Positions 16,340 through 63,238 of a DNA stretch of 64,000 bases are shown in pieces (position 1 is the first letter of the stretch; each line of letters opens with the position of its first letter). Source of the DNA: an uncultured Gammaproteobacteria bacterium (GTDB lineage: Bacteria; Patescibacteriota; Microgenomatia; CAYQLK01); contig CAYUKQ010000001.1 of assembly GCA_964445355.1 (NCBI GenBank), positions 12,277-76,276 of the forward strand, written 5' to 3'. Position numbers and translations under genes: made by a program. The notes beneath the pieces are model-generated. The model was not told the origin of the DNA. It searched no databases and worked only from the letters and a program-made list of their open reading frames with translations.

Positions 16340-17200
16340 ATGTGTAGTAAGCGTAAACCGCTTAGTTTTGGATTTAGTTTCATCGAACTTATTGTCTCTA
16401 TAGGCATTTTTGGGGTATTAATTTCACTGATCATTGTCGCTGTCAATCCTGTAAGTCAATTTAAAAGAACTCGCGACGTGCAAAGAGCGTCTGATCTCAA
16501 AGCGATCCAAGTCGGGTTGGAGGCTTATAGGATAGCTAATAACTCTTACCCGTTATCCACACAAGATTTTAAAATTACCGGCACCGATTGGGGAGACAAA
16601 TGGGAGACCTATATGCAGCTTCCAGCCGACCCTTTGGAGGAATATAGTTATGCTTATGTTTCCCAGCTTGGAGACAGCTATCAAATTTATGCTCGGTTTG
16701 AAACCACTCCACCTCAGGAATTAGTCTGCACCCCAAACTGCGGACCGAACGGGCTGTACAATGCCGGTTTAGCCAGTGCAAATAGTTCACTTGCGGCAAT
16801 CATGTTCGTACCTTCACCGACACCAACCGCCACACCCACACCTACAGATCTTCCGCAAGGCAAAGTCTCGTATTTTGGAACTTCAGCAACTTACCCGAAG
16901 ATCATTCAGGTCGATTTTGATCCTCTCGATGTGCCGCTCAACCAGACACAATTACTGACTGCCAAAGTTTGGTCAGAAAATCCCGTTGAGACGGTTACGC
17001 TGCGCCTTGAATTGGATAACACGATTACCGAGACCTACCAGCTTGCCCAAACTTCAACAGTGATCATTAATGGAATATATCGCGATCTCTGGTCGATCAG
17101 TATTCCCCATACCGACAGTCATAATTCTCGGTATTCAGTGTATCTATCTGCCACAGACTCGCAAAGTAATAGTATAAATCCAGAAATAATTATCAGATAA
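16340..17200 (+). CDS. Type IV pilin-like protein (class III prepilin signal)
   Basis: G|FSFIELIVSIGIFGVLISLIIVAV has the prepilin peptidase site with Glu at +5. 286 aa with a Thr/Pro linker (PSPTPTATPTPT). Confidence 0.7.
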   Translation: MCSKRKPLSFGFSFIELIVSIGIFGVLISLIIVAVNPVSQFKRTRDVQRASDLKAIQVGLEAYRIANNSYPLSTQDFKITGTDWGDKWETYMQLPADPLEEYSYAYVSQLGDSYQIYARFETTPPQELVCTPNCGPNGLYNAGLASANSSLAAIMFVPSPTPTATPTPTDLPQGKVSYFGTSATYPKIIQVDFDPLDVPLNQTQLLTAKVWSENPVETVTLRLELDNTITETYQLAQTSTVIINGIYRDLWSISIPHTDSHNSRYSVYLSATDSQSNSINPEIIIR

Positions 17201-17202
17201 AA

Positions 17203-19317
17203 ATGTCTACCCAAAAAATCCTCACCATCAAACAATTAACCAAACACTTAACCAAAATATTGTTTGTGTTTGTCTTTTTAATGTTAGGTAGCATTGCAGT
17301 TGCAAAACTCAATTCTGTTTATGCGGTTTATAGTATTAATTCTGTAACTCCAACTTGTGTTGGAACGACTTCCTCGGTCTCGGTTAATTACAGTGTTGAC
17401 GGCCCAAACGGTGCCGCAGGCACAACAGACAATCCATACAATCAATACTCGACCATGTATGATTTTAGTCAATTCTTGTCTGGTACTTATTCCAGCACTT
17501 GGAACAAAGGCGGATTAGGATTTTCTGCCGGAGTAAGTTACACAATTCTTCTTCAGGACCGCAATTTAGGCTGGCCGTCAATGAACAAAGCATCCCAGGT
17601 GTTTACAGCCCTGAATTGTCAGACACCTCCTACTATTACCTCGCCTACCAAAACATCGTTCACCACCACCGGAGCCACACTTGGGGGAAATGTTACCTCA
17701 GCCGGCAATGGTACTTGGTCAAGCAGGGGAGTATGTGTCGGACTTTCAGCTAATCCTACGACTGGTTGTACCAGCACCAGTGGAACGACTGGAGTGTTTA
17801 CTGTCGCTGTCAGTGGTCTGAGCAGCAATACTCTCTATCACTACCGAGCCTACGCAGCCAGTTCGGCTGGCACGGTTTACACTACAGACGACACCTTTAC
17901 CACGCTCAATCCAAACACCCAACCGACCGTTGTCTCCGGGCCAACACTCAGCTATCAGAACAGTCGTTTCCGAACAGGTCCTAATACAACCTGGTCTCTT
18001 ACTTTGCGAGCTGATGATGCTGAGCAAACAGGTGCGAATGCCTTATCTTGGCAGTTACGTACAGCATCCGGCGGCGGCGGCACACTTATTACCAGCGGAA
18101 CGACGACTAGCGGCCAGACCAACAATTTCGGTAGCTTTGCCTATACACAAACAGGGGTCGTTGAAGGCAGTAATACCGTCTACTTAAGAATCTATGATGG
18201 GACCGCTTGGTCAAACGATTGGTTCAGTTGGTTGTACCGCGATACCGTCAATCCGACCAGTGCAACTTCTATTTCACACTCCCCTGCTAATGTTTCCACG
18301 GATAATAACTACACTGTGACCTTCACACCCAACGATGCTGCAAGTACTAATAGCAATGAGCTTATTGGGTATGTCTACACCGGACCCAACGGTACTGGTA
18401 CATATCTTACAGGCACGTCCGCAACCAGCGGACAATCCAAGACCACCTCAACGATTACAGATACCGCTCTGGTTCAAGGAAACAATACTCGTTATCTCAG
18501 GACCTGTGATGGGGCGAATAACTGCAGTGACACAAGTTTCACAGTTATCAAAAGTAGTACGGCTTCAATATCTTCACCGACCAAGAATTCGATCACGGTT
18601 TACGGAGCAAATCTCGGTGGTAACATCACTACTGACAATGGTAATACCATAACCGGTAGGGGTGTTTGTGTCGGAGCAAGCGCCGACCCTGCTATAGGTG
18701 GAAACTGTATAGGTACAACCGGAACTACTGGAATATTTAGCGTACTTTTTACCAATCTCACCGGCGCAACGACCTACCACTACCGTGCTTACGCTACCAA
18801 CTCCGCCGGTACGGTGTATACAACAGATGACACTTTTATAACAATCACTCCGGCCACAGGATGTACATTCCCGATCTCCGGTGATGTCTCAATCAACTCC
18901 ACCTGCAACATCCCTACCAACGGACTTACCGTATCAACAACACAGTTAAGGCTTGTTGGTTCAGACACAGGCAGTATTCAAATGCTGGCTGATATGACGG
19001 TTAATCCGGGCAGCATTCTTGTTTGGGGTCCGGGAAAACAAATTGTCCGAGCTCCTGGTGTAACAATGTTTAACGCTACCGGAACACAAATTACCCAAAA
19101 ATATATCTGCCTCTATGATCCGGATTCCGATGGTGTGCCTAATGACTACATCGTCAACACTCAAGGCGGGACCGCAGTACTGCAAGACAGCTCAAGCTGT
19201 GGAACGAACTACATTCGTCCAAACTCATTGAATGCGGCATTTTTAGAATTCAATAGTGCGGTCAAAGACCTCGCTCCAGACGATGGATTGTGTTTTGACA
19301 GTGCAACATGTAATTAG
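17203..19317 (+). CDS. Large Ser/Thr/Gly-rich cell-surface protein with two internal repeats of about 90 aa (putative adhesin)
   Basis: N-terminal signal/TM (ILFVFVFLMLGSIAVA). Repeat 1 nt 17638-17907 (TSPTKTSFTTTGATLGGNVTSAGNGTWSSRGVCVGLSANP...YHYRAYAASSAGTVYTTDDTFTTL). Repeat 2 nt 18571-18846 (SSPTKNSITVYGANLGGNITTDNGNTITGRGVCVGASADP...YHYRAYATNSAGTVYTTDDTFITI). Starts 3 nt after the pilin gene. Confidence 0.65.
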   Translation: MSTQKILTIKQLTKHLTKILFVFVFLMLGSIAVAKLNSVYAVYSINSVTPTCVGTTSSVSVNYSVDGPNGAAGTTDNPYNQYSTMYDFSQFLSGTYSSTWNKGGLGFSAGVSYTILLQDRNLGWPSMNKASQVFTALNCQTPPTITSPTKTSFTTTGATLGGNVTSAGNGTWSSRGVCVGLSANPTTGCTSTSGTTGVFTVAVSGLSSNTLYHYRAYAASSAGTVYTTDDTFTTLNPNTQPTVVSGPTLSYQNSRFRTGPNTTWSLTLRADDAEQTGANALSWQLRTASGGGGTLITSGTTTSGQTNNFGSFAYTQTGVVEGSNTVYLRIYDGTAWSNDWFSWLYRDTVNPTSATSISHSPANVSTDNNYTVTFTPNDAASTNSNELIGYVYTGPNGTGTYLTGTSATSGQSKTTSTITDTALVQGNNTRYLRTCDGANNCSDTSFTVIKSSTASISSPTKNSITVYGANLGGNITTDNGNTITGRGVCVGASADPAIGGNCIGTTGTTGIFSVLFTNLTGATTYHYRAYATNSAGTVYTTDDTFITITPATGCTFPISGDVSINSTCNIPTNGLTVSTTQLRLVGSDTGSIQMLADMTVNPGSILVWGPGKQIVRAPGVTMFNATGTQITQKYICLYDPDSDGVPNDYIVNTQGGTAVLQDSSSCGTNYIRPNSLNAAFLEFNSAVKDLAPDDGLCFDSATCN

Positions 19318-19366
19318 AAACAATCATTGACAATCCGTAGCTTTTTGCTACAATCCTATCTCAACA

Positions 19367-19618
19367 ATGAAAGACAAACCAAGGTTGTGTTTGTTAAATA
19401 TTCATAAGTCCACGGGTTCCCGAGCAGTCGCTCGGGTTTTTTTTGATCAAATTTCCCTTCAATCGCTCAAAAACAGCAAAGAGTTTGAGCCGTTTAACCC
19501 CCAGGAACTGCAGTCAATTTTGAGTCTTAATTTCCAAAACCTATCTGCCTTTAGTAGTTCCAACTCATCCAGTTGCGCAGCTTGTTCTCACAGTGGCTGT
19601 CACGGTAATTGCAGATAA
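19367..19618 (+). CDS. Putative RiPP (TOMM/LAP-type) precursor peptide A1. C-terminal core SAFSSSNSSSCAACSHSGCHGNCR. True start uncertain.
   Basis: ORF ends in a Cys/Ser-rich tail typical of azol(in)e precursor cores. Leader shares an N[SA]KEF[ED] motif with the downstream peptide. The terminator hairpin at 19419-19444 lies inside this ORF and no ATG/GTG follows it in frame (only a TTG 32 codons from the end). Start may be internal, or expression may depend on read-through. Confidence 0.4.
   Translation: MKDKPRLCLLNIHKSTGSRAVARVFFDQISLQSLKNSKEFEPFNPQELQSILSLNFQNLSAFSSSNSSSCAACSHSGCHGNCR
19419..19444 (+). terminator. Rho-independent terminator (downstream of surface-protein gene, upstream of or within the RiPP precursor region)
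   Basis: cccgagc-agtc-gctcggg perfect 7-bp stem followed by T8. Confidence 0.75.
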
Positions 19619-19645
19619 ATATTTGAAAGGAGGTGAAAATAAAAA

Positions 19646-19789
19646 GTGAACAAGACTAATAATAACGCTAAAGAATTCGACGAAGTCGTTTCTGAGGTTA
19701 AACTGTCCCAAGAAGAGATTAGTGATGCTACCAGTAGTGCATCTGCACAAGGATCATGTGGTCACACAGGTTCGAATTCAGGTAGATAA
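19646..19789 (+). CDS. Putative RiPP (TOMM/LAP-type) precursor peptide A2 (47 aa): VNKTNNNAKEFDEVVSEVKLSQEEISDATSSASAQGSCGHTGSNSGR
   Basis: Missed by the 60-aa ORF track. GTG start 8 nt after a strong SD (AAGGAGGTG). Acidic leader followed by a Ser/Thr/Cys/Gly-rich core. Lies immediately upstream of YcaO and SagB-type genes. Confidence 0.6.
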   Translation: MNKTNNNAKEFDEVVSEVKLSQEEISDATSSASAQGSCGHTGSNSGR

Positions 19790-19858
19790 AACTCCTTCTC
19801 TCATAGCTAGCTGAGTAATCAAGTGTGAGCTCACACAAATAAAAACAGGATAGTATTT

Positions 19859-21151
19859 ATGTCAAAACAAAGCTTGATCGAAAGCAACTTAGAGTTGCTA
19901 TATCAAAAATGCGTTTCTGCCCACGAAAAAACAAAATTTATATCAACCGTTCATCGGAGCTTTTTCTACAACGATGAACCCAAGCTGTATACGTTCATTT
20001 TGAACAGTAAAAACTCGTCCAAAAAATTCCGTACCAACGCCAGCGGCTCGGCCTGGGATGAAAAACTCGCTTTTATTAAAGGCTATATTGAAATGATAGA
20101 AAGATACGCACTGATCCCTTCAGATCAAGACCTCGATCATTTAGTTCTCTCGTCCGAGACTGGATTGCCTAAGGCAATAAAACTTAGCAAATTCATGAAA
20201 TTCTCACATAGCCAAATGATCGACAAGTTTTTTGCCCGAAAAGTCGCGACCGAGAATGACCCTTTATACTGGACTGAAGCTATTGATTTATGTGCCCGCA
20301 AAACCGTATATATTCCGGCTCAAACTGTTTTTTGTCCGTTCGGAAAAAAAGAAAAAATCATTCGCACGCCAATTTCAACGGGCGCATCAGCGGGTTTGGA
20401 CAAAAATTCAACAATAACCAGGGCAATTTTTGAAGTTCTTGAAAGAGACACGTTTATTTCATCCTATTTGGGTCGCCTTTCAGGTACGATAATTAAGATA
20501 AAAAACCCAAAAGGAGTGATCAAAGATTTACTGGACGAATTTAGCTTTTATTTACTCGAACCAACAATTATCAGATTGGACAACGATTATCATATTCCCG
20601 TCATACTGACAATTCTTACGGATCTGACTAAAAACAAGCCGGTCATTACCTTCGGACTCAAGTGTCATCCTGATCTGAACAGGGCGATTCAGGGTAGTTT
20701 GGAGGAATCATTTCATACTCGCGGATGGATGCGTGACGAATTGGCAAAATCCGATACTGTCTACATTAATTCACTAATCAAAAATATCGAACACACTTAC
20801 GAGCTCAAAGATCGCGGACTTATCTGGTCTCAACCTTTCGTTCTCAAAAACGTTGATTTTTGGCTTAATAACAAAAAAACATTTAATCTATCTCTCAAAG
20901 CAAGTTATCCAAAAATTCCATTAAATACTCTCCTTAAAAAGTTACAAGCAATCGGATTTGATATTTATCTCAAAGAACTAACTGATCCGGAGATCGCCAA
21001 ACTTGGTTTTTACGCCTGTAAGGTCATCATACCCCAAGCACAACCTCTTTACCTGGAAGAGGATTTTCAATATTTGGACACCAGCCGTATTGAAAAGATC
21101 GCAAAACATAAGATCACCAAGCTTAATACATTTTTACAACCCTTCCTATGA
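19859..21151 (+). CDS. YcaO-domain cyclodehydratase (SagD/TOMM D-protein-like), stand-alone
   Basis: N-terminal NASGSAWDEKLAFIKGYIEMIERYA and central PISTGASAGLDKNSTITRAIFEVLERDTF match the YcaO signatures (ASGxG...ERY and SNG-AxG...E--ERD). 430 aa. No fused E1-like domain. Confidence 0.75.
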   Translation: MSKQSLIESNLELLYQKCVSAHEKTKFISTVHRSFFYNDEPKLYTFILNSKNSSKKFRTNASGSAWDEKLAFIKGYIEMIERYALIPSDQDLDHLVLSSETGLPKAIKLSKFMKFSHSQMIDKFFARKVATENDPLYWTEAIDLCARKTVYIPAQTVFCPFGKKEKIIRTPISTGASAGLDKNSTITRAIFEVLERDTFISSYLGRLSGTIIKIKNPKGVIKDLLDEFSFYLLEPTIIRLDNDYHIPVILTILTDLTKNKPVITFGLKCHPDLNRAIQGSLEESFHTRGWMRDELAKSDTVYINSLIKNIEHTYELKDRGLIWSQPFVLKNVDFWLNNKKTFNLSLKASYPKIPLNTLLKKLQAIGFDIYLKELTDPEIAKLGFYACKVIIPQAQPLYLEEDFQYLDTSRIEKIAKHKITKLNTFLQPFL

Positions 21152-21861
21152 AAGATTATATTTCTGAGTTTTTTATCCAAACCGGGACTCAGTCCGATAA
21201 TGCACCCAAGCCTATCCCATATGATAAATGGCCGATTGCCTGGAAAACAATTCATTACAAGAACTACCCCAGATTTCCGCGTATCGGAATTACAAAATTC
21301 AAACCAGTCTCAGAGATCGAAAAAATCATTTCCAGAAGACGAAGTAATCGAAATACCAATAGGATATTATCCGCTGGCAAATTAAAGAAAATCTTGCATT
21401 TTGCAAACTATGGCGTATCAATTGATGGGCGAAGCTATCGTGCGTACCCCTCAGGGGGAGCCAGATATCCGCTGGAAATTTATCTATTTATTAATAATGT
21501 AAAAGGCCTAAAAAAGGGTCTTTATCATTATGCTTTCGAAACAAATTGCTTAGAATTACTTCAGGATAAAGACATGACAGCAGAATTAAAAGACTTGCTG
21601 GTAGATGGCTGGGTTGCCGACTCAGCTGTTTTTTTGGTCATTACCGCCGTTCCCGGCCGAAGTGCGATTAAATATGCAAACAAGTCATTAAGATATCTCT
21701 TTATTGAAGCAGGCCACTTAGGTCAAAATATATTATTGCTGGCAGAAAAATACAAAGTTAATACCTGTCCGATCGGTGGTTTTTATGAAGATAAGCTCAA
21801 TAAACTCCTTCGAATTGACAGGACCAGCGAGAAAGCAATATATTCAATTGCTATAGGTTGA
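21148..21861 (+). CDS. SagB/McbC-type FMN-dependent dehydrogenase (nitroreductase superfamily) of TOMM pathways
   Basis: RSYRAYPSGGARYPLEIYLFI matches the SagB-family R-x-Y-P-S-x-G-A-x-YP-x-E-x-Y motif. 4-nt overlap (ATGA) with the ycaO stop. Confidence 0.75.
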   Translation: MKDYISEFFIQTGTQSDNAPKPIPYDKWPIAWKTIHYKNYPRFPRIGITKFKPVSEIEKIISRRRSNRNTNRILSAGKLKKILHFANYGVSIDGRSYRAYPSGGARYPLEIYLFINNVKGLKKGLYHYAFETNCLELLQDKDMTAELKDLLVDGWVADSAVFLVITAVPGRSAIKYANKSLRYLFIEAGHLGQNILLLAEKYKVNTCPIGGFYEDKLNKLLRIDRTSEKAIYSIAIG

Positions 21862-23609
21862 TTATGAGTAATGAAAAATTAAGGCAAAATTCACCAGAAA
21901 CGAAAATGCTCGAAAAAGAACCATCAAAAGCCAGACTGACAGCAACCGATCTGAGTATTAGTGTCGGCACCAGAGACTTAATAGTTGATGGCAACTTCTC
22001 AATTGGCACATCAGAAAGACTAGCCTTGATTGGTCGTAATGGCAGCGGAAAAACTTCGCTTCTCGACTTGGTTGCCGCTGTTTCCACGGGCGATCAGCCC
22101 CCTGAATATCTCGACGTAAAGGGGGACATTTCTCTGACCCAAGCCAAGGTAGGCTATCTAAGACAAGATATTCAAGTCGCCTATGATGGTACGGTCAAGG
22201 GGTACATAGATCAGTGTGCACAAGATGTAGCTGCAGTCATCGCAAACTACGATGCTCTTACCGCTAGACTGGCTGACGGCGAGACCGGCGACGAGCTAAT
22301 GGATGAATACGGCAAGGCCTTGGATGAGATGTCGCAGCTGGACGCTTGGGACTTCCCTCGCAAAAGAGAAATGATTCTGCAAGGCCTTGGTCTGACAGCA
22401 GATTACTTGGATCGGGATATGACCGAGGTAAGCGGGGGAGAAGCGACAAAAGTATCTTTAGCGGGAATTTTGGTTGCTTCACCTAATCTAATTTTACTCG
22501 ACGAACCGACCAATAATCTCGATCCTGAGAGCGTGAAATTTTTTGAAGAATGGGTCAAAACTACACAAACTTCACTGCTGTTAGTTTCCCACGATCGGGA
22601 ATTTTTAGACGAAACTGTAACAGAAATACTTGAAATAGATGAAGATACAAAACACCTGATCAGATTCGGAGGTAACTATTCTTTTTATAAACAGAAAAAA
22701 CAAGAGATGTTTGACGCACAGATGCGGTCGTATGAAGAACAACAAAAAAAACGTAAACAACTAGAAGATTCAGCAAAGCAGCTGAAACAAGAGGCGCAAA
22801 GATTTGAAGGTATGTCCAACGATTCTTTTTATCGGGCAAAGGGGGGAGGGCTTGCAAAAAGAGCAAAATCTCAACTGGAGCGAATCGAGCGCGAGTTAAA
22901 TGACATTCCCGAGCCAGTACTCCCTAAACGGCCATCCTTTGAGGTAAAAGAACCACAAATTTCAGACGGGACAGTCATGGTGGCTCAAGATCTTTCGTAT
23001 CGTTATCCAAACAACTCCGTTGATACTTTTTCTAAGGTCAATTTTTCTATTCGTGGAGGTGAAAGGGTTGGAATTGTGGGCGCAAACGGTGCCGGTAAAA
23101 GTACACTCCTTCGAGTTTTAATCGGCAACCTTCCTTCTACAGGCGGGAAAGTAGAGCAATTCAAAGGACTCAAAGTCGGATATTTACCTCAAACAACTGA
23201 CAGGCTTAAACCTGATCAGAACATCATCGACTACATTCGCCGAAAAGCCTCTGTCTCCGTCGAAGACGCATATAAAGCGCTTTCCAGAATGCTACTTGAT
23301 GATTCGGCGCACAAATCCGTATCTGATTTTAGTTTTGGAGAGTTTCGCCGTATCGAGCTAGTAGCACTTTTTGCCTCTAATCCTGACGTATTAGTTCTTG
23401 ATGAGCCGACTAATCATTTAGATATTTATACGATCGAAACTCTTGAAGATGCGCTCACTAGATATCACGGGACGGTTATAACTGTTACACACGATGAAAG
23501 ATTCTTAAAAGATCTAAACATCGACAAAATCATTGTTGTCGGAAAAGGCGGGTTAGTCGGCATGCACAAAGTAGAAGATTCAAAAGATGTCGCTGGATAC
23601 TTTACTTAA
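21858..23609 (+). CDS. ABC-F family ATPase (two tandem NBDs, no TMD), translationally coupled to the RiPP enzymes
   Basis: Walker A GRNGSGKTSLL and GANGAGKSTLL. Signature VSGGEATKVSLA. Walker B LLDEPTNNLD / VLDEPTNHLD. Lys/Gln/Glu-rich inter-domain linker (KKQEMFDAQMRSYEEQQKKRKQLEDSAKQLKQEAQRFEG). ATGA overlap with sagB-like stop. Confidence 0.75.
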   Translation: MIMSNEKLRQNSPETKMLEKEPSKARLTATDLSISVGTRDLIVDGNFSIGTSERLALIGRNGSGKTSLLDLVAAVSTGDQPPEYLDVKGDISLTQAKVGYLRQDIQVAYDGTVKGYIDQCAQDVAAVIANYDALTARLADGETGDELMDEYGKALDEMSQLDAWDFPRKREMILQGLGLTADYLDRDMTEVSGGEATKVSLAGILVASPNLILLDEPTNNLDPESVKFFEEWVKTTQTSLLLVSHDREFLDETVTEILEIDEDTKHLIRFGGNYSFYKQKKQEMFDAQMRSYEEQQKKRKQLEDSAKQLKQEAQRFEGMSNDSFYRAKGGGLAKRAKSQLERIERELNDIPEPVLPKRPSFEVKEPQISDGTVMVAQDLSYRYPNNSVDTFSKVNFSIRGGERVGIVGANGAGKSTLLRVLIGNLPSTGGKVEQFKGLKVGYLPQTTDRLKPDQNIIDYIRRKASVSVEDAYKALSRMLLDDSAHKSVSDFSFGEFRRIELVALFASNPDVLVLDEPTNHLDIYTIETLEDALTRYHGTVITVTHDERFLKDLNIDKIIVVGKGGLVGMHKVEDSKDVAGYFT

Positions 23610-41529: not shown

Positions 41530-43719
41530 ATGTCAGAGAGTAGTTTTCGGACTAATCAAATTCCAAACATGACCATGCTGGAGCTTCGTGTTCCACGAGA
41601 TTCAGAAGTTTCTTGGGAAGCTACTGTACAAATGTTGACGAATCTTAAAGGAAACTTTGGTTTTGATAAATACGCAAAACTCTTTCGCCGCCACATCCCG
41701 TCAATGTCGCTCGAAATCGCAACAATTAATCAATCAATTAAGTTTTTTGTTATCGTTCCTACCAACTTGCGATCTTTTTTCGAAAGTCAGCTAATTTCTC
41801 AATACCCTTTAGCGGTTGCGGTTGAAGCAGAGAATTATTTAACAGATTGGTTTTCTCAAGGCTACATCATGTCCGGCGAGTTGGTTTTGGGTAAGCCGGC
41901 ATATTTTCCCATCCGCACAATGAAAGATTTTGATGCATCAGTTGATCCGCTTTCCTCGGTACTTGGTGTAATGTCCAAAACACTACCTGAGGAGAAAATT
42001 CTGATCCAAATTAACTTATCTGGAGCAAGCGGTAGCTGGTCAAGTACCGCCAAGGCAATATTAAATCCGCCAAAAGTTGAGGGGCAGACCCCATCAAAAG
42101 TCACAGGGGCAAATTTTATCGAGGAAAAAATCTCACTTCCGGGATTCAATACAGGCATACGGATAGTTGTCGGCGCGCCAACTGAATCGCAGGCAAAAGG
42201 ACTTTTGGACTCCGTTGCCGGATCATTCGGAAGTTATGCAAATGGCGAAGGCAATTCTCTCCGACTTTCCAAACCCAGCAATAGAAAAAAGAAAAAATTT
42301 ATTCAAGCGATCTATGACCGTAGTGCTGATCAAATACCATCAGCACAAGTTCTGAGTACCAAAGAAGTGGCCTCTCTCTGGCATCTGCCGTCAAAAAGTC
42401 TCACTACGATCCAAAATTTATCATGGGGAACATCTGTACTTTCTGAATCACCGGAAAATCTTCCGACCGCCGAAAATATCGAGCGGGATACTATTAATTA
42501 CTTCGCTAGAACCGAACACAAAAACCAGATCAAAACATTTGGGATCAAGCATAATGACAGACGAAGACACTTCTATGTTGTCGGAAAATCCGGTACTGGT
42601 AAATCTACCTTAATTGCAAATATGGCAATTAACGATATTCGCAATCGTCAGGGGCTTGCGATCGTTGATCCGCACGGCGACCTTTGCGACATTCTTCTTG
42701 ATTACATCCCTTCATATCGCGTCAACGATGTAATCTATTTTGACCCTTCCGATCAATCTCGAACTTTTGTTATTAATCCACTTGAAGTAAAAAATGAAGC
42801 TCAAAAAGAACTGGTTGCTTCAGGTATTGTCGGAATATTTAAAAAACTCTTTGCTTTTTCCTGGGGACCCAGATTGGAGCATATCCTTCGTAACACGATT
42901 CTAACTTTAGTCAATGTACCTGACTCATCTTTTATGGATGTTCCGCGAATACTCACTGACAGGGAATTTCGTGCCGAAAAACTCAAATATATAGATGATC
43001 CTGTCTTGCTTCGTTTTTGGAGAGATGAAATTGACAATGTCCAGCCAAGACAATTGGAAGAGGCCGTCGCGCCGATTTTGAACAAAGTTGGACAGTTCTT
43101 ATCAAGCAAGACCATTAGAAATGTCGTTGGTAGGCCCAAGTCGACGATCGATATTGAAGAAGTTATGAATTCTGGAAAAATTCTTTTACTCAATTTGTCT
43201 CAGGGTTATCTTGGTGAAGACTCTGCGGCACTACTTGGTGCGATGATTATCACAAAATTTCAAATTGCAGCCATGAACAGAGTTTCGCTTAAAGAAGCTG
43301 ACAGAAAAGATTTTTTCCTTTACGTTGATGAGTTCCAGAACTTTGCAACTGAATCTTTTGCCAAAATTCTTTCAGAGGCGAGAAAATATCGTCTGTGTTT
43401 GATCATGGCCAACCAGTTCATGTCGCAAGTGCCGGAAGATATTCGCAATGCAATTTTGGGTAATGTTGGATCGCTGGTTACTTTTTTGGTCTCTGCTCAA
43501 GATGCACCCATACTTTCCAGGGAGTTCTCCGATATTTATAAAGAACCAGAGTTCACTTCGCTAGCTAATTTTCAAATCTTACTAAGACTACTTATTGATG
43601 GGCACGCATCTAGACCATTTTTTGCAAACACTCTTCCGTTACCGCGGTCAAAAACTGAGCGAAGAGAAAAAGTGCTTGAACAATCAAGAGCAAAATACAC
43701 CAGAGAAATTACGGTCTAG
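41530..43719 (+). CDS. P-loop ATPase of the TraG/TraD/VirD4 (T4SS coupling protein) / HerA-FtsK-like class
   Basis: Walker A VVGKSGTGKST followed by IVDPHGDL. Walker B FFLYVDEFQNF. 729 aa. N-terminal about 340 aa of unknown fold, with no obvious TM helices. Confidence 0.5.
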   Translation: MSESSFRTNQIPNMTMLELRVPRDSEVSWEATVQMLTNLKGNFGFDKYAKLFRRHIPSMSLEIATINQSIKFFVIVPTNLRSFFESQLISQYPLAVAVEAENYLTDWFSQGYIMSGELVLGKPAYFPIRTMKDFDASVDPLSSVLGVMSKTLPEEKILIQINLSGASGSWSSTAKAILNPPKVEGQTPSKVTGANFIEEKISLPGFNTGIRIVVGAPTESQAKGLLDSVAGSFGSYANGEGNSLRLSKPSNRKKKKFIQAIYDRSADQIPSAQVLSTKEVASLWHLPSKSLTTIQNLSWGTSVLSESPENLPTAENIERDTINYFARTEHKNQIKTFGIKHNDRRRHFYVVGKSGTGKSTLIANMAINDIRNRQGLAIVDPHGDLCDILLDYIPSYRVNDVIYFDPSDQSRTFVINPLEVKNEAQKELVASGIVGIFKKLFAFSWGPRLEHILRNTILTLVNVPDSSFMDVPRILTDREFRAEKLKYIDDPVLLRFWRDEIDNVQPRQLEEAVAPILNKVGQFLSSKTIRNVVGRPKSTIDIEEVMNSGKILLLNLSQGYLGEDSAALLGAMIITKFQIAAMNRVSLKEADRKDFFLYVDEFQNFATESFAKILSEARKYRLCLIMANQFMSQVPEDIRNAILGNVGSLVTFLVSAQDAPILSREFSDIYKEPEFTSLANFQILLRLLIDGHASRPFFANTLPLPRSKTERREKVLEQSRAKYTREITV

Positions 43720-57212: not shown

Positions 57213-58931
57213 ATGCTCCTGCCCAATGAAGATCTAAAAAAATCACTACTAGAATCAGGTTATGTCAACGAATCCCAATATGCTGATGCACTAAATGCGT
57301 CAAGAATGTTTAAGCAGCCGGTAATAGAAATTATTCTTTCGCGCGGGTTAATTCAAGAAGAGACGCTGGGTGAAGTTCTTTCAAAAACTTCAGGATTTCC
57401 CTTTGCTCCCTTAAAAACCAAAATTGATCCCAAAATTCTTAACATTATCCCCCCGGGGTTCGCTAACAAAAACCGTTGCATCATATTCGATATCAAAGAT
57501 AACGAATTGCAAATCGCTACATCCGATCCGGAAAATCATACAGCGTTTAATCAAATTCAGCTTAAAACCGGCAAAAGTATTAGGTTGTTTTTTACTTTGC
57601 CTTCGATTCTCAACAAGGCTATGGGTCAATACAGGCAGGATATTGCTGAAGGTTTCAAATCCGAAATTACCAAAACCGCTTCACTTGCGGCAAGCTCAGC
57701 CGGTCCCAAAATAGGAGAAAATATTAATGTTGTTAGAACTTTTGACAAAATTTTGCAATTCGCTGCAGCCAAAAATGCTTCAGATATTCACATTGTCGGC
57801 TATCAATCAAGGGTGATTATTAGGTTTAGGATCAATGGTAGACTAAAAGATATCTTAGAGCTACCAAAAAGTATCCAATCAGGTTTGATCGCCAGAATTA
57901 AAATCCTTTCTTCACTCAAGATCGATGAACACCGTGTTCCTCAAGACGGGCGATTCAGATTCGACTACTTAACAGAACAGTACTCAGTTCGTGTTTCAAT
58001 TTTACCTTTATCCACTGGGGAGGATGCAGTCCTTCGTCTACTTTCTGACTCATCCGCCCCAAAAAGCCTTGAAGAAATTGGTCTCCGGGGCAAAAATTTA
58101 GAATTAATGAAAATTGAATTAGAGAAACCTCAAGGTATGATTCTATCAACCGGACCGACCGGCTCAGGTAAAACGACCACGCTATACAATCTCTTAAAAA
58201 TTCTTAATAAAGAAGATGTAAATATTATTACGATTGAAGATCCAGTTGAGTACACGATCGATCGTGTTAATCAGATTCAGGTTAATTCGACCACTGGTCT
58301 TACATTTGCATCCGGACTAAGATCAATACTCCGTCATGATCCGGATATTATTTTGGTGGGTGAAATTAGAGATGCTGAAACTGCTGATATCGCCATTCAC
58401 TCAGCTCTAACCGGGCACTTGGTATTGTCAACGTTACACACCAACGACGCGCCCACAGCTATTCCCAGATTTGAAGATCTTGGAATTGAACCATTCTTAT
58501 TAGCATCAACATTATCAGTAATTATTGCTCAGCGACTTGTAAGAAGATTAGACCCCAACAAAATAGAAAGTTATCAGGTTCCACAGAGTATTATCGATCG
58601 TTTTAGTCAATATCTCGGTTCAGAGGCGTCAACACAATTATTAACCAAAACCAGCTTTTATAAACCAAGAGAAGATGTCGATCCGGAAGAAGTGTTTATT
58701 GGTAGAATTGCTGTATTCGAAATCCTTAAAATAACTCCTAAAATCCGTGAACTTATTCAAAACAAAGCATCGTTAGAAGAGTTAACTGCTCAAGCCAGAA
58801 TTGAAGGCTTTACTACAATGTTAGAAGATGGGATCGATAAAGCCGCCGCTGGTTTAACAACTTTAGAGGAAGTTCTTGACGCAGTATCAGAAAGCGTTGA
58901 TTATGACGATCAATCTGAAAAAAAATCATAA
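57213..58931 (+). CDS. pilB: Type IV pilus assembly / type II secretion ATPase (PilB/GspE family)
   Basis: N-terminal T2SSE_N-like domain. Walker A GPTGSGKTTT. Asp box, Walker B ILVGEIRD, His box HTNDAPTAIPR. Confidence 0.9.
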   Translation: MLLPNEDLKKSLLESGYVNESQYADALNASRMFKQPVIEIILSRGLIQEETLGEVLSKTSGFPFAPLKTKIDPKILNIIPPGFANKNRCIIFDIKDNELQIATSDPENHTAFNQIQLKTGKSIRLFFTLPSILNKAMGQYRQDIAEGFKSEITKTASLAASSAGPKIGENINVVRTFDKILQFAAAKNASDIHIVGYQSRVIIRFRINGRLKDILELPKSIQSGLIARIKILSSLKIDEHRVPQDGRFRFDYLTEQYSVRVSILPLSTGEDAVLRLLSDSSAPKSLEEIGLRGKNLELMKIELEKPQGMILSTGPTGSGKTTTLYNLLKILNKEDVNIITIEDPVEYTIDRVNQIQVNSTTGLTFASGLRSILRHDPDIILVGEIRDAETADIAIHSALTGHLVLSTLHTNDAPTAIPRFEDLGIEPFLLASTLSVIIAQRLVRRLDPNKIESYQVPQSIIDRFSQYLGSEASTQLLTKTSFYKPREDVDPEEVFIGRIAVFEILKITPKIRELIQNKASLEELTAQARIEGFTTMLEDGIDKAAAGLTTLEEVLDAVSESVDYDDQSEKKS

Positions 58932-58938
58932 ATAAAAA

Positions 58939-60018
58939 ATGAATTTCTCAATACCGCTCTTTAACCCGAATCCTATACCGACAAAAACTAAAATTGAATT
59001 TTTTCAGAATCTAGCAACCATGATTGATGCTGGCATCCCAATTGATCAAGCAATCAGATCAATTGTTGAGGATAATGAAAAATCATCAAAAAATATAGTA
59101 TTTAACACTCTTGTTAAAAACCTTGAATCCGGCAAGTCACTTAATGAGGGTATGGCGAATTTCCCAATGTACTTCAGTAGATCTGAAGTATCCGTTGTCA
59201 AAGCTGGTGAAGTTGGTGGTACACTGACCGACTCACTAAGAATTTTAGTTAGAACCCTAAAAGAACAGGAATTTATTAAAAAATCAATTAAATCCGCCAT
59301 GACATACCCAGGTATGGTCATGGGGGTGATGGCAGTGGTAAGTACAGTTCTGGTATTGTTTGTGATTCCCAGACTGGGTGAAACGTTTCTAAGATTAAAT
59401 GTCAAAATTCCATTACCGACCCAGATTCTAATACATGTATCTCTTTTTCTTCAAAAAAACCAAATACTTTCGATTCTTGGAATCATATTGATTACTGTAC
59501 TGTTGATACTATACGCTCGAAGCAATCTTGGTAGGAAATCGCTTATTTGGATTTTATCCAAAATACCTGTAACAAAACGTATTATGCTTGAAATCGATCT
59601 GGCTCGAGTTTCAACCATTTTTTCTTCTCTACTAACTTCAGGAATTCCAATTCTTGAAGTTTTAGATCTTACCAGGGAGACATTAATTTTACCCGAGGTC
59701 AAACGGAGTATTACTCAAATATCACGAGATTTAGCCTCTGGTTCTACTTTAGAAGCGGCATTCGACAAACACCGCAAAATATATCCTTCGACCTTTCGGC
59801 GGATATTGGCAACAGGAGAAAAATCAGGAACTCTGGAAACATCGATGTCGCAAGTATTTGAATATTATTCAACTTCGGTAACAGATAAGCTGAAAAACAT
59901 TTCAGTAATTATTGAGCCTGTTATTTTGATAGTGATCGCACTCGGAGTAGGTGGGTTGATTATTTCTTTTATTGGTCCAGTTTATGAACTTATCGGATCG
60001 TTAAACAAAGCAGTATGA
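58939..60018 (+). CDS. pilC: Type IV pilus / T2SS platform protein (PilC/GspF family, single-repeat form)
   Basis: GspF-domain hallmarks (MIDAGIPIDQAIRSI) and 3 TM helices. 359 aa. Confidence 0.8.
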   Translation: MNFSIPLFNPNPIPTKTKIEFFQNLATMIDAGIPIDQAIRSIVEDNEKSSKNIVFNTLVKNLESGKSLNEGMANFPMYFSRSEVSVVKAGEVGGTLTDSLRILVRTLKEQEFIKKSIKSAMTYPGMVMGVMAVVSTVLVLFVIPRLGETFLRLNVKIPLPTQILIHVSLFLQKNQILSILGIILITVLLILYARSNLGRKSLIWILSKIPVTKRIMLEIDLARVSTIFSSLLTSGIPILEVLDLTRETLILPEVKRSITQISRDLASGSTLEAAFDKHRKIYPSTFRRILATGEKSGTLETSMSQVFEYYSTSVTDKLKNISVIIEPVILIVIALGVGGLIISFIGPVYELIGSLNKAV

Positions 60019-60503
60019 TGCCTAATATAAGTAGGATTAAGACCGGATTTACACTGGTAGAGGTTGTTCTGGTTGTGACAATTTTAGGTCTTGTCGTTGT
60101 ATTTAGCTCAGTTGTATTTAGTAATCAGCAAAACCAAACTAGTTTGGAAAGCACGATACTTGAAGTGAATTCATCAATCAGAGAGGTGCAAAATAAATCC
60201 TTGTCTCAATCTCAGGATATTTCCAGTGACGAAAATTTTGGCATATATTTTTCAACTAATTCATATACTACTTTTAAGGGAAACAGCTATTCAGTCAATA
60301 ACCCAACGAATTTTACGGTTAATTTTGGATCAGGTATCATACTTTCTTCAATCAATTTTCCCAACTCACAACTTATCTTCGATCGGCTTACGGGCAAGCT
60401 AACATCCTATTCAGATTCACAAAACACAATAGTATTCTCAACATTTGATAATGCAACAAAGACACTAACAATCAATCCATATGGCGCAATTACGATTGAA
60501 TAA
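60015..60503 (+). CDS. Prepilin-type (pseudo)pilin
   Basis: G|FTLVEVVLVVTILGLVVV N-terminal methylation motif with Glu+5. Confidence 0.75.
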   Translation: MMPNISRIKTGFTLVEVVLVVTILGLVVVFSSVVFSNQQNQTSLESTILEVNSSIREVQNKSLSQSQDISSDENFGIYFSTNSYTTFKGNSYSVNNPTNFTVNFGSGIILSSINFPNSQLIFDRLTGKLTSYSDSQNTIVFSTFDNATKTLTINPYGAITIE

Positions 60504-62337: not shown

Positions 62338-62855
62338 TGAAAAATATAATAAACAGATTACGATTTTTTAAGGTTACCAGTCGCCAAGGCACAACATTTG
62401 TCGAGGTATTGCTATACATTGCATTGCTTTCAATCGTTATTGTTTTTATAACTGACATTATTCTACAAACGCTTAACTTTATGATTGAATCTCGGAATAT
62501 CTCCTATTTAGATTCGGACGCTCGATTTATTAGCACGAAGTTAAGAAACGATCTACGAAAAGCCGATACGATTTCAGTACCTACAACAATTGGAGAGACC
62601 TCCAATAGTATTACTTTTGAATATGAGAGCGATAACTATACTTATAGCCTTAGTGATGGAATTTTACAGATCACCGATCCGAATGGCACATACCGTATTA
62701 ATTCTGACCAAACTACGGTTAGCAGTTTTTCAGTTACAAATAGGAGTTATGCTCTTGGTGCCACTACGCTCGATTTTGATATAGTCTTAAATTCCAGAAC
62801 TGTTTCAAGCAGTATAGATCAAATTAACCTTAATTTTACTGTCAATAATCGATAA
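62334..62855 (+). CDS. Prepilin-type pseudopilin
   Basis: QG|TTFVEVLLYIALLSIVIV with Glu+5. ATGA overlap with the upstream gene. Confidence 0.65.
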   Translation: MMKNIINRLRFFKVTSRQGTTFVEVLLYIALLSIVIVFITDIILQTLNFMIESRNISYLDSDARFISTKLRNDLRKADTISVPTTIGETSNSITFEYESDNYTYSLSDGILQITDPNGTYRINSDQTTVSSFSVTNRSYALGATTLDFDIVLNSRTVSSSIDQINLNFTVNNR

Positions 62856-62860
62856 ATATA

Positions 62861-63238
62861 ATGAATAACAAAAATAATCTTGGATCAGCATTACTTGCAG
62901 TTATTATTGTTTCGGCCATAGCCACGGTAATTTTTACCTCCGCGTCAACCACCTTAATTGGACAGATGCTACAGTCGCAAACATCAATTAACAGTACTAG
63001 ATCATATCTACTCACAGAATCAGGGATCGAAGAAGCGATTCTTAACCTATTACGTAATCAAAATTATGCTGGTGGAACTTTTAATTTAGACAATAATGAG
63101 ATTACAATTAACGTAAGTGGATCAAACCCAAAAACTATTACATCGACAACGGGGTTTGGTAATACTAAAAGAACAATTGAGGTTGTTGTCTCATACTCTG
63201 AGAACAATTTGTCGGTAATTTCCTGGAAAGAAATATAA
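62861..63238 (+). CDS. Pilin-like protein with N-terminal hydrophobic helix (non-canonical: no Glu+5)
   Basis: LGSALLAVIIVSAIATVIF N-terminus. Sits inside the pilus operon. Confidence 0.5.
   Translation: MNNKNNLGSALLAVIIVSAIATVIFTSASTTLIGQMLQSQTSINSTRSYLLTESGIEEAILNLLRNQNYAGGTFNLDNNEITINVSGSNPKTITSTTGFGNTKRTIEVVVSYSENNLSVISWKEI

What the first reader, a model, noticed from the sequence alone, without database searches (positions are those of the whole stretch)
19367..23609. Compact TOMM/LAP-like RiPP biosynthetic cluster: two precursors + YcaO + SagB-type dehydrogenase + ABC-F
Four elements sit in a tight co-directional, translationally coupled array. (i) Two small ORFs with Cys/Ser/Thr/Gly-rich C-termini. 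(ii) A protein with YcaO signatures (ASGSAWDEKLAFIKGYIEMIERYA; STGASAGLDKNSTITRAIFEVLERD). (iii) A SagB/McbC-type dehydrogenase (RSYRAYPSGGARYPLEIY). (iv) An ABC-F ATPase. This is the architecture of thiazole/oxazole-modified microcin (linear azol(in)e peptide) pathways. Such clusters are not commonly described for CPR-like low-GC reduced genomes. The precursor cores (ATSSASAQGSCGHTGSNSGR; SAFSSSNSSSCAACSHSGCHGNCR) do not resemble any named product I recognise.
Basis: partly seen in the sequence, partly recalled or inferred. Interest (0 to 1): 0.85.

Follow-up and report, generated by a model that had tools for sequence, protein, structure and literature searches.

The report
Azole-peptide gene cluster with ribosome-protection-like ATPase
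A tiny-genome (CPR) bacterium carries a compact operon that most likely makes two small azole-modified peptides. The operon is unusual because it lacks the usual helper protein and is welded to a ribosome-protection-type ATPase, which hints that the peptides attack ribosomes.

Summary
Window 19367-23609 holds two small ORFs, a YcaO (Pfam 136 bits, above cut-off), a SagB-type dehydrogenase (TIGR03605 131 bits against a cut-off of 78) and an ABC-F ATPase. All are co-directional and abutting.

Both small ORFs are real genes. Across five diverged lineages their 20-residue cores are almost invariant as protein while 13 to 18 of the 20 codons change in DNA.

About 90 related loci show a CPR-wide family: precursor, YcaO, SagB, then a leader protease (M16, DUF2268 or C39).
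- None of them encodes the E1-like/RRE partner that defines canonical TOMM synthetases.
- CPR clusters of this kind were already reported (Sharrar 2020, PMC7298704), so the class is not new.

What I could not find in the literature is the ABC-F linkage. It recurs in at least six different genomic contexts. It holds in the reverse direction for two of the four ABC-F homologues whose context was read. It goes with a particular Cys/Ser/Asn/His core type. The ABC-F linker is the length of resistance-type ABC-Fs, about 22-25 residues longer than in EttA, YheS or Uup.

Best reading: a partner-less linear azole peptide pathway whose product targets the ribosome, with ABC-F as self-protection. The chemistry and the target are inferred, not shown.

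The parts
19327..19354 (+). Sigma-70-type promoter: TTGACA, 16 nt, TG-n-TACAAT (extended -10)
   Evidence: It matches 11 of 12 consensus positions with an upstream TG. The TTGAC and TGnTACAAT elements are conserved in all 8 aligned close loci while the flanking sequence varies.
19367..19618 (+). Precursor A1 (orf1, 83 aa). Long variable leader carrying K-N-S-K-E-F-E-P-F. Core SSNSSSCAACSHSGCHGNCR.
   Evidence: The ORF is open in 5 distinct lineages with no indels. In the last 20 codons, 18 vary in DNA but only 3 vary in amino acid. The ATG lies 12 nt after the -10 element, so the mRNA is probably leaderless or nearly so (inference).
19419..19444 (+). Intrinsic-terminator-like hairpin (CCCGAGC / 4-nt loop / GCUCGGG) followed by U8, lying inside orf1 codons 18-26. 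Candidate attenuator.
   Evidence: Found by the terminator scan and by folding. The stem and the U-run are invariant in DNA in all lineages, including synonymous positions. The loop codon encodes V, M, I or A. No Rfam family matches. No equivalent exists in the distant loci.
19646..19789 (+). Precursor A2 (orf2, 47 aa, GTG start). Leader motif N-N-A-K-E-F-D-E. Core ATSSASAQGSCGHTGSNSGR.
   Evidence: A strong RBS, AAGGAGGTG, sits 10 nt upstream. In the 20 core codons, 13 vary in DNA and none in amino acid across 5 lineages. Precursors in L008, L009 and L012 share the core motif SC-x-H-T-G-(S/N)-N-S. L008 also shares the leader motif NAKEF.
19823..19836 (.). Perfect 14-bp palindrome GTGTGAGCTCACAC between the precursors and the YcaO gene. 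Candidate operator or RNA processing/stability hairpin.
   Evidence: It is invariant in all 8 close loci and unique in the window. It has no U-run, so it is not a classical terminator.
19859..21151 (+). YcaO-domain enzyme (430 aa), stand-alone. Predicted ATP-dependent cyclodehydratase.
   Evidence: PF02624 scores 135.8 bits. TIGR03604 SagD family gives E = 7e-53 but scores below its cut-off. The AF2 model has pLDDT 91.6 and is a YcaO fold only. The best structural matches are M. jannaschii YcaO and the heterocyclase of PDB entry 4v1v, TMq 0.78; from memory that entry is LynD. Both ExxER motifs are invariant in 30 homologues.
21148..21861 (+). SagB-type FMN dehydrogenase (237 aa). Predicted azoline-to-azole oxidase. 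Its start overlaps the YcaO stop (ATGA).
   Evidence: TIGR03605 scores 130.7 bits against 78.4. PDB sequence matches are 3eo7, CyaGox, BmdC and McbC. A Lys-Tyr pair (..IKY..) is kept in all the homologues compared. In 75 of 79 related loci, a SagB gene lies next to the YcaO gene.
21864..23609 (+). Two NBDs, no membrane domain, linker of resistance-type (ARE) length. Predicted ribosome-protection / immunity factor.
   Evidence: Two ABC_tran domains plus ABC_tran_Xtn. NF000355 scores 407 against 380. The best PDB matches are ExpZ/VmlR-type resistance ABC-Fs. The segment from the NBD1 H-loop to the NBD2 Walker A is as long as in VmlR and the Sal-type protein, and 22-25 residues longer than in EttA, YheS or Uup. 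The gene is linked to YcaO-SagB in L008, L009, L012, L033/L039, L093 and L094.

Best explanation

Proposed pathway:
1. One promoter drives two precursor genes, A1 and A2.
2. The precursor leaders carry a shared (N/D)-(A/S)-K-E-(F/Y) recognition motif.
3. A stand-alone YcaO uses ATP to cyclodehydrate Cys/Ser/Thr residues in the invariant 20-residue cores to azolines.
4. The translationally coupled SagB-type flavoprotein oxidises the azolines to azoles. The conserved G-S-C triplet could give an oxazole-thiazole pair.

Unlike canonical TOMM synthetases, no E1-like/RRE partner is present. Leader recognition must therefore be done by the YcaO or SagB proteins themselves. The YcaO N-terminal 62 residues lie outside the family HMMs and are a candidate for this role.

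The last gene is an ABC-F of resistance-type design. It is a co-selected part of the module. It most likely protects the producer's ribosomes, which implies that the mature peptides act on the ribosome, as klebsazolicin and phazolicin do.

What is shown: gene identities, coding status of the precursors, absence of a detectable partner in the sequence examined, and the ABC-F linkage. What is inferred: azole chemistry, the ribosome as target, and the immunity role. In this lineage the leader protease found in sister clusters is missing, so cleavage would need a protease encoded elsewhere.
For: - Family assignments. PF02624 and TIGR03605 are above their cut-offs. TIGR03604 gives E = 7e-53.
- YcaO fold with no extra domain.
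- ExxER motifs and a C-terminal P-x-P-F-L tail conserved in 30 homologues.
- K-Y motif kept in SagB homologues.
- Purifying selection on both cores with variable leaders.
- The same precursor family occurs upstream of YcaO in L008, L009 and L012. The AKEF-type leader motif recurs across the M16 clade.
- Sister clades carry M16, DUF2268 or C39 leader proteases in the third position. This is the signature of RiPP maturation.
- SagB lies next to YcaO in 75 of 79 loci, with no recurrent E1-like neighbour. No ThiF/E1 hit among the window ORFs scanned.
- ABC-F linkage:
  - It is present after YcaO-SagB(-C39) in at least six unrelated genomic contexts.
  - In the reverse search, the two closest ABC-F homologues outside the window's own clade whose genomic context I read (53% and 52% identity) both follow a small ORF-YcaO-SagB.
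  - ABC-F and YcaO identity matrices are incongruent, which suggests repeated association.
  - It is absent from the M16 and DUF2268 clades, whose cores differ in composition.
  - The linker segment matches resistance ABC-Fs best and has their length.
- CPR LAP clusters were independently predicted in PMC7298704.
Against: - No chemistry has been observed.
- TIGR03604 scores 180 bits, below its 219-bit cut-off.
- The E1-like partner, thought necessary for most azoline-forming YcaOs, is missing. Activity would need a new recognition mode.
- No exporter and, in this lineage, no leader protease is encoded.
- ABC-F relatives at 46-48% identity are not linked to YcaO. One of them sits between rplU and rpmA like a housekeeping gene.
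- The NF000355 score does not separate linked ABC-Fs (375-407) from unlinked ones (373-379).
- The trees are neighbour-joining trees without support values.
- I could not check whether these genomes hold a second ABC-F.
Confidence: 0.6

Rival explanations
1. The peptide pathway is the same, but the ABC-F is not an immunity factor. Either it is the lineage's ordinary translation ABC-F that happens to sit in the operon, or it helps ribosomes translate or regulate the Ser/Gly/Cys-rich precursor mRNAs.
For: Unlinked relatives at 46-48% identity exist. One lies between the bL21 and bL27 genes. NF000355 scores for linked and unlinked proteins overlap. The L093 precursor has a (GGGS)x8 tract that might be hard to translate. 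No second ABC-F is seen in the 64-kb window.
Against: The adjacency recurs in at least six different flanking contexts and across incongruent ABC-F lineages. It tracks one type of core peptide and is absent from the roughly 40 M16 and DUF2268 loci. The linker is of resistance-type length, not EttA/YheS/Uup length.
Confidence: 0.25
2. The stand-alone YcaO does not make azolines. It performs another backbone activation, such as amidine or thioamide formation, or peptide cleavage. This would resemble bottromycin or streptamidine, where a stand-alone YcaO sits beside a flavoprotein. On this reading the product is not a LAP.
For: No E1-like partner is present. The nearest PDB sequences are the M. 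jannaschii and M. kandleri YcaOs; that these are thioamide-forming enzymes is from my own memory, not a tool result. TIGR03604 scores below its cut-off. Streptamidine clusters pair a stand-alone YcaO with a dehydrogenase (PMC8442711).
Against: The best NCBIfam model by far is SagD family, 180 bits against 72 bits for the McrA-thioamidation model. No TfuA is present. The dehydrogenase passes the SagB model and keeps K-Y, whereas the streptamidine enzyme has H-Y and about 10% identity to McbC. The cores are rich in Cys/Ser/Thr next to Gly, as in LAPs.
Confidence: 0.1
3. This is not a RiPP pathway. The YcaO, SagB and ABC-F proteins act together on a cellular protein, for example a ribosomal protein. 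This would parallel E. coli YcaO with the RimO/S12 system, or YcaO-TfuA with McrA. On this reading the small ORFs are incidental.
For: YcaO proteins with protein substrates are known (NF040716 and TIGR03266 give weak hits). The ABC-F is a ribosome-binding factor.
Against: The small ORFs show variable leaders and invariant cores with synonymous-only change. They are always immediately upstream of the YcaO gene. Sister clades add dedicated peptidases.
Confidence: 0.05

Closest known systems
CPR linear azol(in)e peptide clusters described by Sharrar et al. 2020 (mBio, PMC7298704): YcaO + nitroreductase + peptidase + an ~84-aa precursor in Microgenomates_ANG_785, and 110 clusters in 93 other CPR genomes
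   Same: Same host group: the window's SecA is closest to Woyke-, Curtiss- and Daviesbacteria. Same two-enzyme core, with the nitroreductase/SagB gene directly after the YcaO gene. Same upstream ~50-85-aa Cys/Ser-rich precursor. The M16 and DUF2268 loci I retrieved are evidently this family.
   Different: The window's clade has an ABC-F in place of, or in L008/L009/L012 after, the peptidase. It has two precursors and a distinct SC-x-H-T-G-S-N-S / C-S-H-S-G-C-H-G-N-C core type. In the passages I retrieved from that paper (a term search, not a full reading), neither an ABC-F nor the missing E1-like partner is mentioned.
Canonical TOMM/LAP synthetases: microcin B17 McbBCD and streptolysin S SagBCD
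   Same: A YcaO (D) and an FMN dehydrogenase (B) act on a leader-plus-core precursor. Both share Gly-Ser-Cys motifs of the kind that give bis-heterocycles in microcin B17 (my own knowledge). McbC and McbD are detectable relatives.
   Different: There is no E1-like C protein and no RRE. There is no McbEFG/SagFGH-type exporter or immunity system. The YcaO scores below the SagD-family cut-off.
Klebsazolicin and phazolicin (ribosome exit-tunnel-binding LAPs; reviewed in PMC7136475)
   Same: These are short azole-rich peptides with basic residues that block the ribosome. That is the activity the ABC-F linkage predicts here. Sister precursors end in Lys/Arg-rich tails.
   Different: Those clusters encode C, B and D proteins plus an export pump, and no ABC-F. 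There is no sequence similarity between the cores. The target here is only inferred.
Stand-alone YcaO pathways: bottromycin (BotC/BotCD-type enzymes) and streptamidine (PMC8442711)
   Same: The YcaO acts without an E1-like, ThiF-like or TfuA partner. Streptamidine also pairs the YcaO with a flavin dehydrogenase.
   Different: Bottromycin uses a follower peptide and has no SagB. The streptamidine YcaO makes an amidine, and its dehydrogenase is only ~10% identical to McbC and carries an H-Y motif. Here the dehydrogenase is a bona fide SagB-family member with K-Y.
Resistance (ARE) ABC-F proteins encoded in antibiotic gene clusters or used for intrinsic resistance (OleB, CarA, SrmB, TlrC, LmrC; VmlR/ExpZ, Sal, Vga, Lsa)
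   Same: Two NBDs, no membrane domain, and an extended inter-domain linker of VmlR/Sal length. NF000355 scores above its cut-off. The gene is co-located with the biosynthetic genes, as in LmrC (PMC8546547).
   Different: The known producer ABC-Fs sit in macrolide or lincosamide clusters of Actinobacteria. My literature searches found no RiPP/YcaO cluster with an ABC-F. It scores far below the cut-offs of every named resistance subfamily.

Membership tests
TOMM / linear azol(in)e peptide (LAP) biosynthetic cluster | Precursor peptide gene(s) with an N-terminal leader and a Cys/Ser/Thr-rich core next to the enzymes | tested here: met
   orf1 and orf2 are open in 5 lineages, with variable leaders and invariant cores. 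In the two cores, 13/20 and 18/20 codons vary in DNA against 0 and 3 in protein.
TOMM / linear azol(in)e peptide (LAP) biosynthetic cluster | YcaO-domain protein (Pfam PF02624) with the ATP/Mg2+-binding glutamate motifs | tested here: met
   PF02624 scores 135.8 bits against 25.7 and covers positions 4-324 of the 325-position model. E78/E81/R82 and E192/E195/R196 are invariant in 30 homologues. The model has a YcaO fold. Identifying these motifs as the ATP site rests on published YcaO structures, recalled from memory.
TOMM / linear azol(in)e peptide (LAP) biosynthetic cluster | Membership of the SagD-type cyclodehydratase family (NCBIfam TIGR03604) and a Pro-rich PxPxP C-terminus | tested here: inconclusive
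   TIGR03604 is the best model (E = 7e-53, 179.9 bits) but scores below its 219.25 cut-off. The C-terminus is ..LQPFL; the family consensus is ..FPHPFL. This resembles the motif but does not equal it.
TOMM / linear azol(in)e peptide (LAP) biosynthetic cluster | E1-like (C protein) or Ocin-ThiF-like (F protein) partner with an RRE, fused to or encoded beside the YcaO | tested here: not met
   No extra domain in the 430-aa YcaO model. No ThiF/E1/cyclodehydratase-partner hit among the cluster flanks or the 20 further window ORFs scanned. No recurrent partner-like neighbour in about 90 related loci. A partner encoded elsewhere in the genome cannot be excluded.
TOMM / linear azol(in)e peptide (LAP) biosynthetic cluster | FMN-dependent SagB/McbC-type azoline dehydrogenase | tested here: met
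   TIGR03605 scores 130.7 bits against 78.4. PDB relatives are CyaGox, BmdC and McbC. The K-Y motif is conserved.
TOMM / linear azol(in)e peptide (LAP) biosynthetic cluster | Azol(in)e heterocycles in the product (-18/-20 Da per ring) | not testable with these tools
   This needs expression and mass spectrometry.
CPR LAP clusters (Sharrar et al. 2020) | YcaO directly followed by a nitroreductase-family gene, with an adjacent small precursor, in a CPR genome | tested here: met
   CPR affiliation comes from SecA relatives. The description of the family is in PMC7298704.
CPR LAP clusters (Sharrar et al. 2020) | Leader peptidase gene in the cluster | tested here: not met
   There is no gene between SagB and ABC-F. 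tblastn of the C39-like proteins from L008, L009 and L012 finds nothing in the window (best E = 0.12). Peptidases are present in sister loci.
Resistance-type (ARE) ABC-F ribosome protection proteins | Two ABC nucleotide-binding domains joined by a linker, with no transmembrane domain | tested here: met
   Two PF00005 domains plus PF12848 at residues 263-345.
Resistance-type (ARE) ABC-F ribosome protection proteins | Scores as ribosomal-protection-like ABC-F (NF000355) rather than EttA, Uup, YheS or YbiT | tested here: inconclusive
   It scores 407.3 bits against a cut-off of 380. The EttA and Uup models score far below their own cut-offs. However, unlinked relatives score 373-379, and every named resistance subfamily model scores far below its cut-off.
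Resistance-type (ARE) ABC-F ribosome protection proteins | Extended inter-domain linker (ARD) compared with housekeeping ABC-Fs | tested here: met
   The segment from the H-loop to Walker A2 spans 176 residues, against 179 in VmlR and 177 in the Sal-type protein. It spans only 151 in EttA, 156 in YheS and 154 in Uup. The best matches to this segment are resistance proteins.
Resistance-type (ARE) ABC-F ribosome protection proteins | Binds the ribosome and confers resistance to a ribosome-targeting compound | not testable with these tools
   This needs in vitro translation or resistance assays.

The most novel reading that the evidence does not exclude
A minimal two-enzyme azole synthetase (YcaO + SagB, with no E1-like/RRE partner) makes a new family of ribosome-targeting azole peptides in CPR bacteria. 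The producer protects itself with a dedicated ABC-F. This would be the first RiPP cluster with ABC-F immunity. In the window's lineage the operon would also be throttled by a terminator embedded in the first precursor's coding sequence, which would couple expression to the state of the cell's own translation.
Probability: 0.3. Interest if true: 0.75.

Novelty: new variant of a known kind. Interest (0 to 1): 0.5.

Why it matters
If the reading holds, it offers three things.

1. A natural, very small (about 2 kb) azole-forming system that recognises its leader without an RRE/E1-like protein. This is of interest for RiPP enzymology and engineering.

2. A genome-mining rule: an ABC-F welded to a YcaO-SagB pair flags translation-targeting peptides. 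This extends resistance-guided mining to RiPPs.

3. A hint that ultra-small, host-dependent CPR bacteria invest in ribosome-directed chemical warfare or host manipulation.

The class itself (LAP-like clusters in CPR) is already in the literature, so the value lies in the ABC-F linkage and the missing partner, not in the existence of the cluster.

Tried and rejected
- An exact-sequence look-up of the window YcaO found nothing, although a 100%-identity cluster representative exists.
- The genome-contig scan returned only one locus.
- Cluster-member look-ups returned no names.
- Rfam: no known leader or riboswitch in 19250-19900.
- PADLOC: no defence-system model matches the YcaO or SagB proteins. 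The ABC-F gives only generic ATPase hits.
- I looked for the orf1 terminator in distant ABC-F-linked loci. It is absent, so it is a lineage-specific feature and not part of the conserved module.
- I looked for a lost C39 peptidase elsewhere in the window. There is none.
- I considered that the ABC-F might be a transporter subunit. Rejected: no membrane domain, and ABC-F architecture.
- I considered that the small ORFs next to the unlinked ABC-F in L095 might be another bacteriocin locus. They are not Cys/Ser-rich.
- I considered using the NF000355 score to separate immunity from housekeeping ABC-Fs. It does not discriminate.
- I did not use the second structure job. SagB homologues from the loci could not be submitted, and a single-sequence model would not add to TIGR03605.

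Full report
**Observation.**
- orf1 has 83 aa.
- orf2 has 47 aa. It has a GTG start, with AAGGAGGTG 10 nt upstream.
- A 430-aa protein follows, then a 237-aa protein whose ATG overlaps the previous stop.
- The last is an ABC-F. Its likeliest start is ATG 21864, 3 nt after the SagB stop. That gives a 581-aa protein identical to database protein P0046.

The HMM scans leave no doubt about the three enzymes.
- PF02624 YcaO: 135.8 bits, cut-off 25.7, near full-length match.
- TIGR03605 SagB family: 130.7 bits, cut-off 78.4.
- Two ABC_tran domains plus the ABC_tran_Xtn linker, and NF000355 'ribosomal protection-like ABC-F' at 407.3 bits, cut-off 380.

The best NCBIfam model for the YcaO is the SagD cyclodehydratase family (E = 7e-53). 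It scores 179.9 bits, below the 219.25 cut-off, so this is a divergent relative.

**Are the small ORFs genes?** Close relatives (75-84% YcaO identity) were recovered with the same synteny, and the intergenic region was aligned. Both ORFs are open and indel-free in five distinct lineages. Codon by codon:
- In the last 20 codons of orf2, 13 vary in DNA and none in protein.
- In the last 20 codons of orf1, 18 vary in DNA and 3 in protein.
- The leaders vary freely, apart from a shared K/N-x-K-E-F/Y-D/E motif.

This is the leader/core pattern of RiPP precursors. Both are therefore real precursor genes, with cores SSNSSSCAACSHSGCHGNCR and ATSSASAQGSCGHTGSNSGR.

**The wider family.** The YcaO has only a few dozen detectable relatives in 5.8 billion proteins. 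The named ones come from Microgenomates and Levybacteria. The window's SecA is closest to Woyke-, Curtiss- and Daviesbacteria, so the host is a Microgenomates-type CPR bacterium.

I collected 12 loci by exact look-up and 80 by a metagenome scan. I annotated them with my own ORF calls and HMMs.
- In 75 of the 79 loci with enough sequence, a SagB gene lies next to the YcaO gene.
- A 50-86-aa Cys/Ser/Gly-rich ORF almost always lies immediately upstream.
- The third gene depends on the YcaO clade (neighbour-joining tree).
  - It is an M16 peptidase in 17 loci.
  - It is a DUF2268 zinc protease in 21 loci.
  - It is a C39-like peptidase followed by an ABC-F in L008, L009 and L012.
  - It is an ABC-F alone in the window's clade, L033/L039, L093 and L094 (Pfam).
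- Leader motifs are conserved within and across clades. DAKEFS occurs in the M16 clade, NAKEF/NSKEF in the window and L008, and S-I-I-E-D/N-A-P-Y in the DUF2268 clade.

Three unrelated leader-protease types in the same position are strong evidence that these are peptide-maturation operons.

**The missing partner.** Canonical azoline-forming YcaOs work with an E1-like C protein or a ThiF-like F protein that carries the leader-binding RRE (PMC7136475). Here none is found.
- The AF2 model (pLDDT 91.6) is a YcaO fold only. It aligns with M. jannaschii YcaO, the heterocyclases of entries 4v1v (TMq 0.78; LynD, from memory) and 4bs9 (TruD), and McbD.
- Neither the flanking genes nor 20 other ORFs of the window hit ThiF/E1-type models.
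- Clustering all neighbours of about 90 loci reveals no recurrent partner-sized family.

The cluster therefore fails one defining feature of TOMM synthetases while meeting the others: the two invariant ExxER motifs, a P-x-P-F-L C-terminus, a SagB with its K-Y motif, and precursors. Functionally it is closest to 'stand-alone' YcaO systems such as bottromycin and streptamidine. It differs from them in having a genuine SagB-family oxidase, which is why azole formation remains the best prediction. YcaO residues 1-62 lie outside both the Pfam and TIGR03604 matches and include the invariant D39-E40-P41. They are a candidate leader-binding element. This is inference only.

**The ABC-F.** This is the unusual component.

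*Forward evidence.* It follows YcaO-SagB, or YcaO-SagB-C39, in the window clade, L008, L009, L012, L033/L039, L093 and L094. The flanks of these loci are unrelated: pilin genes, a HepT/MNT toxin pair, a histidine kinase, SecA, a polyprenyl synthase.

*Reverse evidence.* I searched with the ABC-F and read the context of homologues outside the window's clade. The 53%- and 52%-identity proteins both sit right after a small ORF-YcaO-SagB.

*Incongruence.* L008's ABC-F is 61% identical to L094's but only 36% to L012's. Its YcaO is 38% identical to L094's and 43% to L012's. This suggests the association arose or was re-assorted more than once.

*Specificity.* The roughly 40 M16 and DUF2268 loci lack an ABC-F, and their cores are Cys/Pro-rich or Ser/Lys-rich. 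The ABC-F-linked cores share G/N-S-C-x-H/N..S-N-S-G motifs and a basic C-terminus.

*Design.* The segment from the NBD1 H-loop to the NBD2 Walker A matches VmlR/ExpZ, Sal-, Vga- and Lsa-type resistance proteins best. It has their length: 176 residues against 179 and 177. It is 22-25 residues longer than in EttA, YheS and Uup.

*Caveats.* Relatives at 46-48% identity are not linked to a YcaO. One lies between the bL21 and bL27 genes. Their NF000355 scores (373-379) are hardly lower than those of the linked proteins (375-407). The linked ABC-Fs therefore derive from a CPR ABC-F subfamily that also has housekeeping-like members. I could not check whether the producer genomes carry a second copy.

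**Mechanism proposed.**
1. Transcription starts at a conserved extended -10 promoter (19327-19354).
2. A1 and A2 are translated.
3. The YcaO phosphorylates backbone amides and cyclises Cys/Ser/Thr residues.
4. SagB oxidises the azolines to azoles.
5. A protease not encoded here removes the leaders.
6. The ABC-F keeps the producer's ribosomes free of the product.

Klebsazolicin and phazolicin set the precedent for azole peptides that plug the ribosomal exit tunnel. ABC-F genes inside antibiotic clusters set the precedent for self-protection and signalling (LmrC, PMC8546547). I put about 0.85 on 'RiPP pathway', about 0.75 on azole chemistry given that, and about 0.5-0.6 on a ribosome target with ABC-F immunity.

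**Regulatory oddities.** These are specific to the window's genus-level clade.

First, a canonical terminator (7-bp GC-rich stem plus U8, 19419-19444) lies inside orf1 codons 18-26, about 58 nt after the predicted start of transcription.
- Its stem and U-run are invariant in DNA, even at synonymous sites.
- The loop codon encodes four different amino acids.
- The constraint is therefore on the RNA. It may act as a translation-dependent attenuator, where a ribosome on the near-leaderless orf1 would melt the hairpin. This is untested.

Second, a perfect 14-bp palindrome (19823-19836) between orf2 and the YcaO gene is invariant and unique in the window.

**Novelty.** LAP-like YcaO-nitroreductase-peptidase clusters in CPR genomes were reported in 2020 (PMC7298704) and counted in later surveys (PMC12153355). 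My searches found no paper linking a YcaO/RiPP cluster with an ABC-F. They also found no paper on the partner-less nature of the CPR family beyond general remarks about stand-alone YcaOs. I therefore rate this a new variant of a known kind, of moderate interest.

Noticed in passing
window 19419-19444 (inside orf1), with promoter 19327-19354 and a first hairpin 19373-19395: A canonical intrinsic terminator (GC stem plus U8) is embedded in the 5' coding part of precursor orf1, about 58 nt downstream of a conserved promoter. The stem and U-run are DNA-invariant in five lineages while the loop codon changes amino acid. It is possibly a translation-coupled attenuator. No Rfam family matches, and it is absent from the distant ABC-F-linked loci.
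   Followed up: partly
window 19823-19836: A perfect 14-bp palindrome, GTGTGAGCTCACAC, lies between orf2 and the YcaO gene. It is invariant in 8 close loci and unique in the window. L008 has a different palindrome at the same place (926-945). It could be an operator or an mRNA processing/stability hairpin.
   Followed up: partly
window 22560-23609 (ABC-F NBD2); also L008 and L095: The signature motif of the second nucleotide-binding domain reads S-F-G-E (D-F-S-F-G-E-F-R-R) instead of the usual S-G-G-E/Q. The first domain keeps S-G-G-E. Both Walker B motifs keep the D-E pair.
   Followed up: no
L096 7001-8740 and L095 7001-8722: ABC-F relatives at 48% and 46% identity are not next to any YcaO gene. 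The L096 copy lies between the bL21 and bL27 genes, a housekeeping-like context. The cluster-linked ABC-Fs therefore come from a broader CPR ABC-F subfamily.
   Followed up: partly
window 16340-19317; L002, L004 and L006 at the same relative position: A pilin-like 286-aa protein (T2SSG / N-terminal methylation-type hit) and a 704-aa Thr/Ser/Gly-rich protein with an internal duplication and no Pfam hit always precede the cluster in the window's clade. L093 instead has a 589-aa Cys/Gly-rich secreted-looking protein there. Any link to the peptide cluster is unknown.
   Followed up: no
L001 (CAYQLK010000007.1): The record is titled 'uncultured Gammaproteobacteria bacterium', but the locus is syntenic with the CPR window and 75% identical to it in the YcaO protein. 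The bin label is probably wrong.
   Followed up: no
L010/L011 8147-8392; L093 4658-4897; L037-L045: Three variants occur in the wider family. An 81-aa Cys/Gly-rich ORF lies downstream of SagB instead of upstream of YcaO. One precursor has a (GGGS)x8 spacer before its core. A radical-SAM-like protein (C-x3-C-x2-C) recurs upstream of the M16-type clusters in one subgroup.
   Followed up: no
window 41530-43719 and 57213-63238: A TraG/VirD4-like coupling ATPase and a type IV pilus / type II secretion gene set (T2SSF and several prepilin-like ORFs) lie in the same window. This is typical CPR surface machinery and is not evidently linked to the cluster.
   Followed up: no
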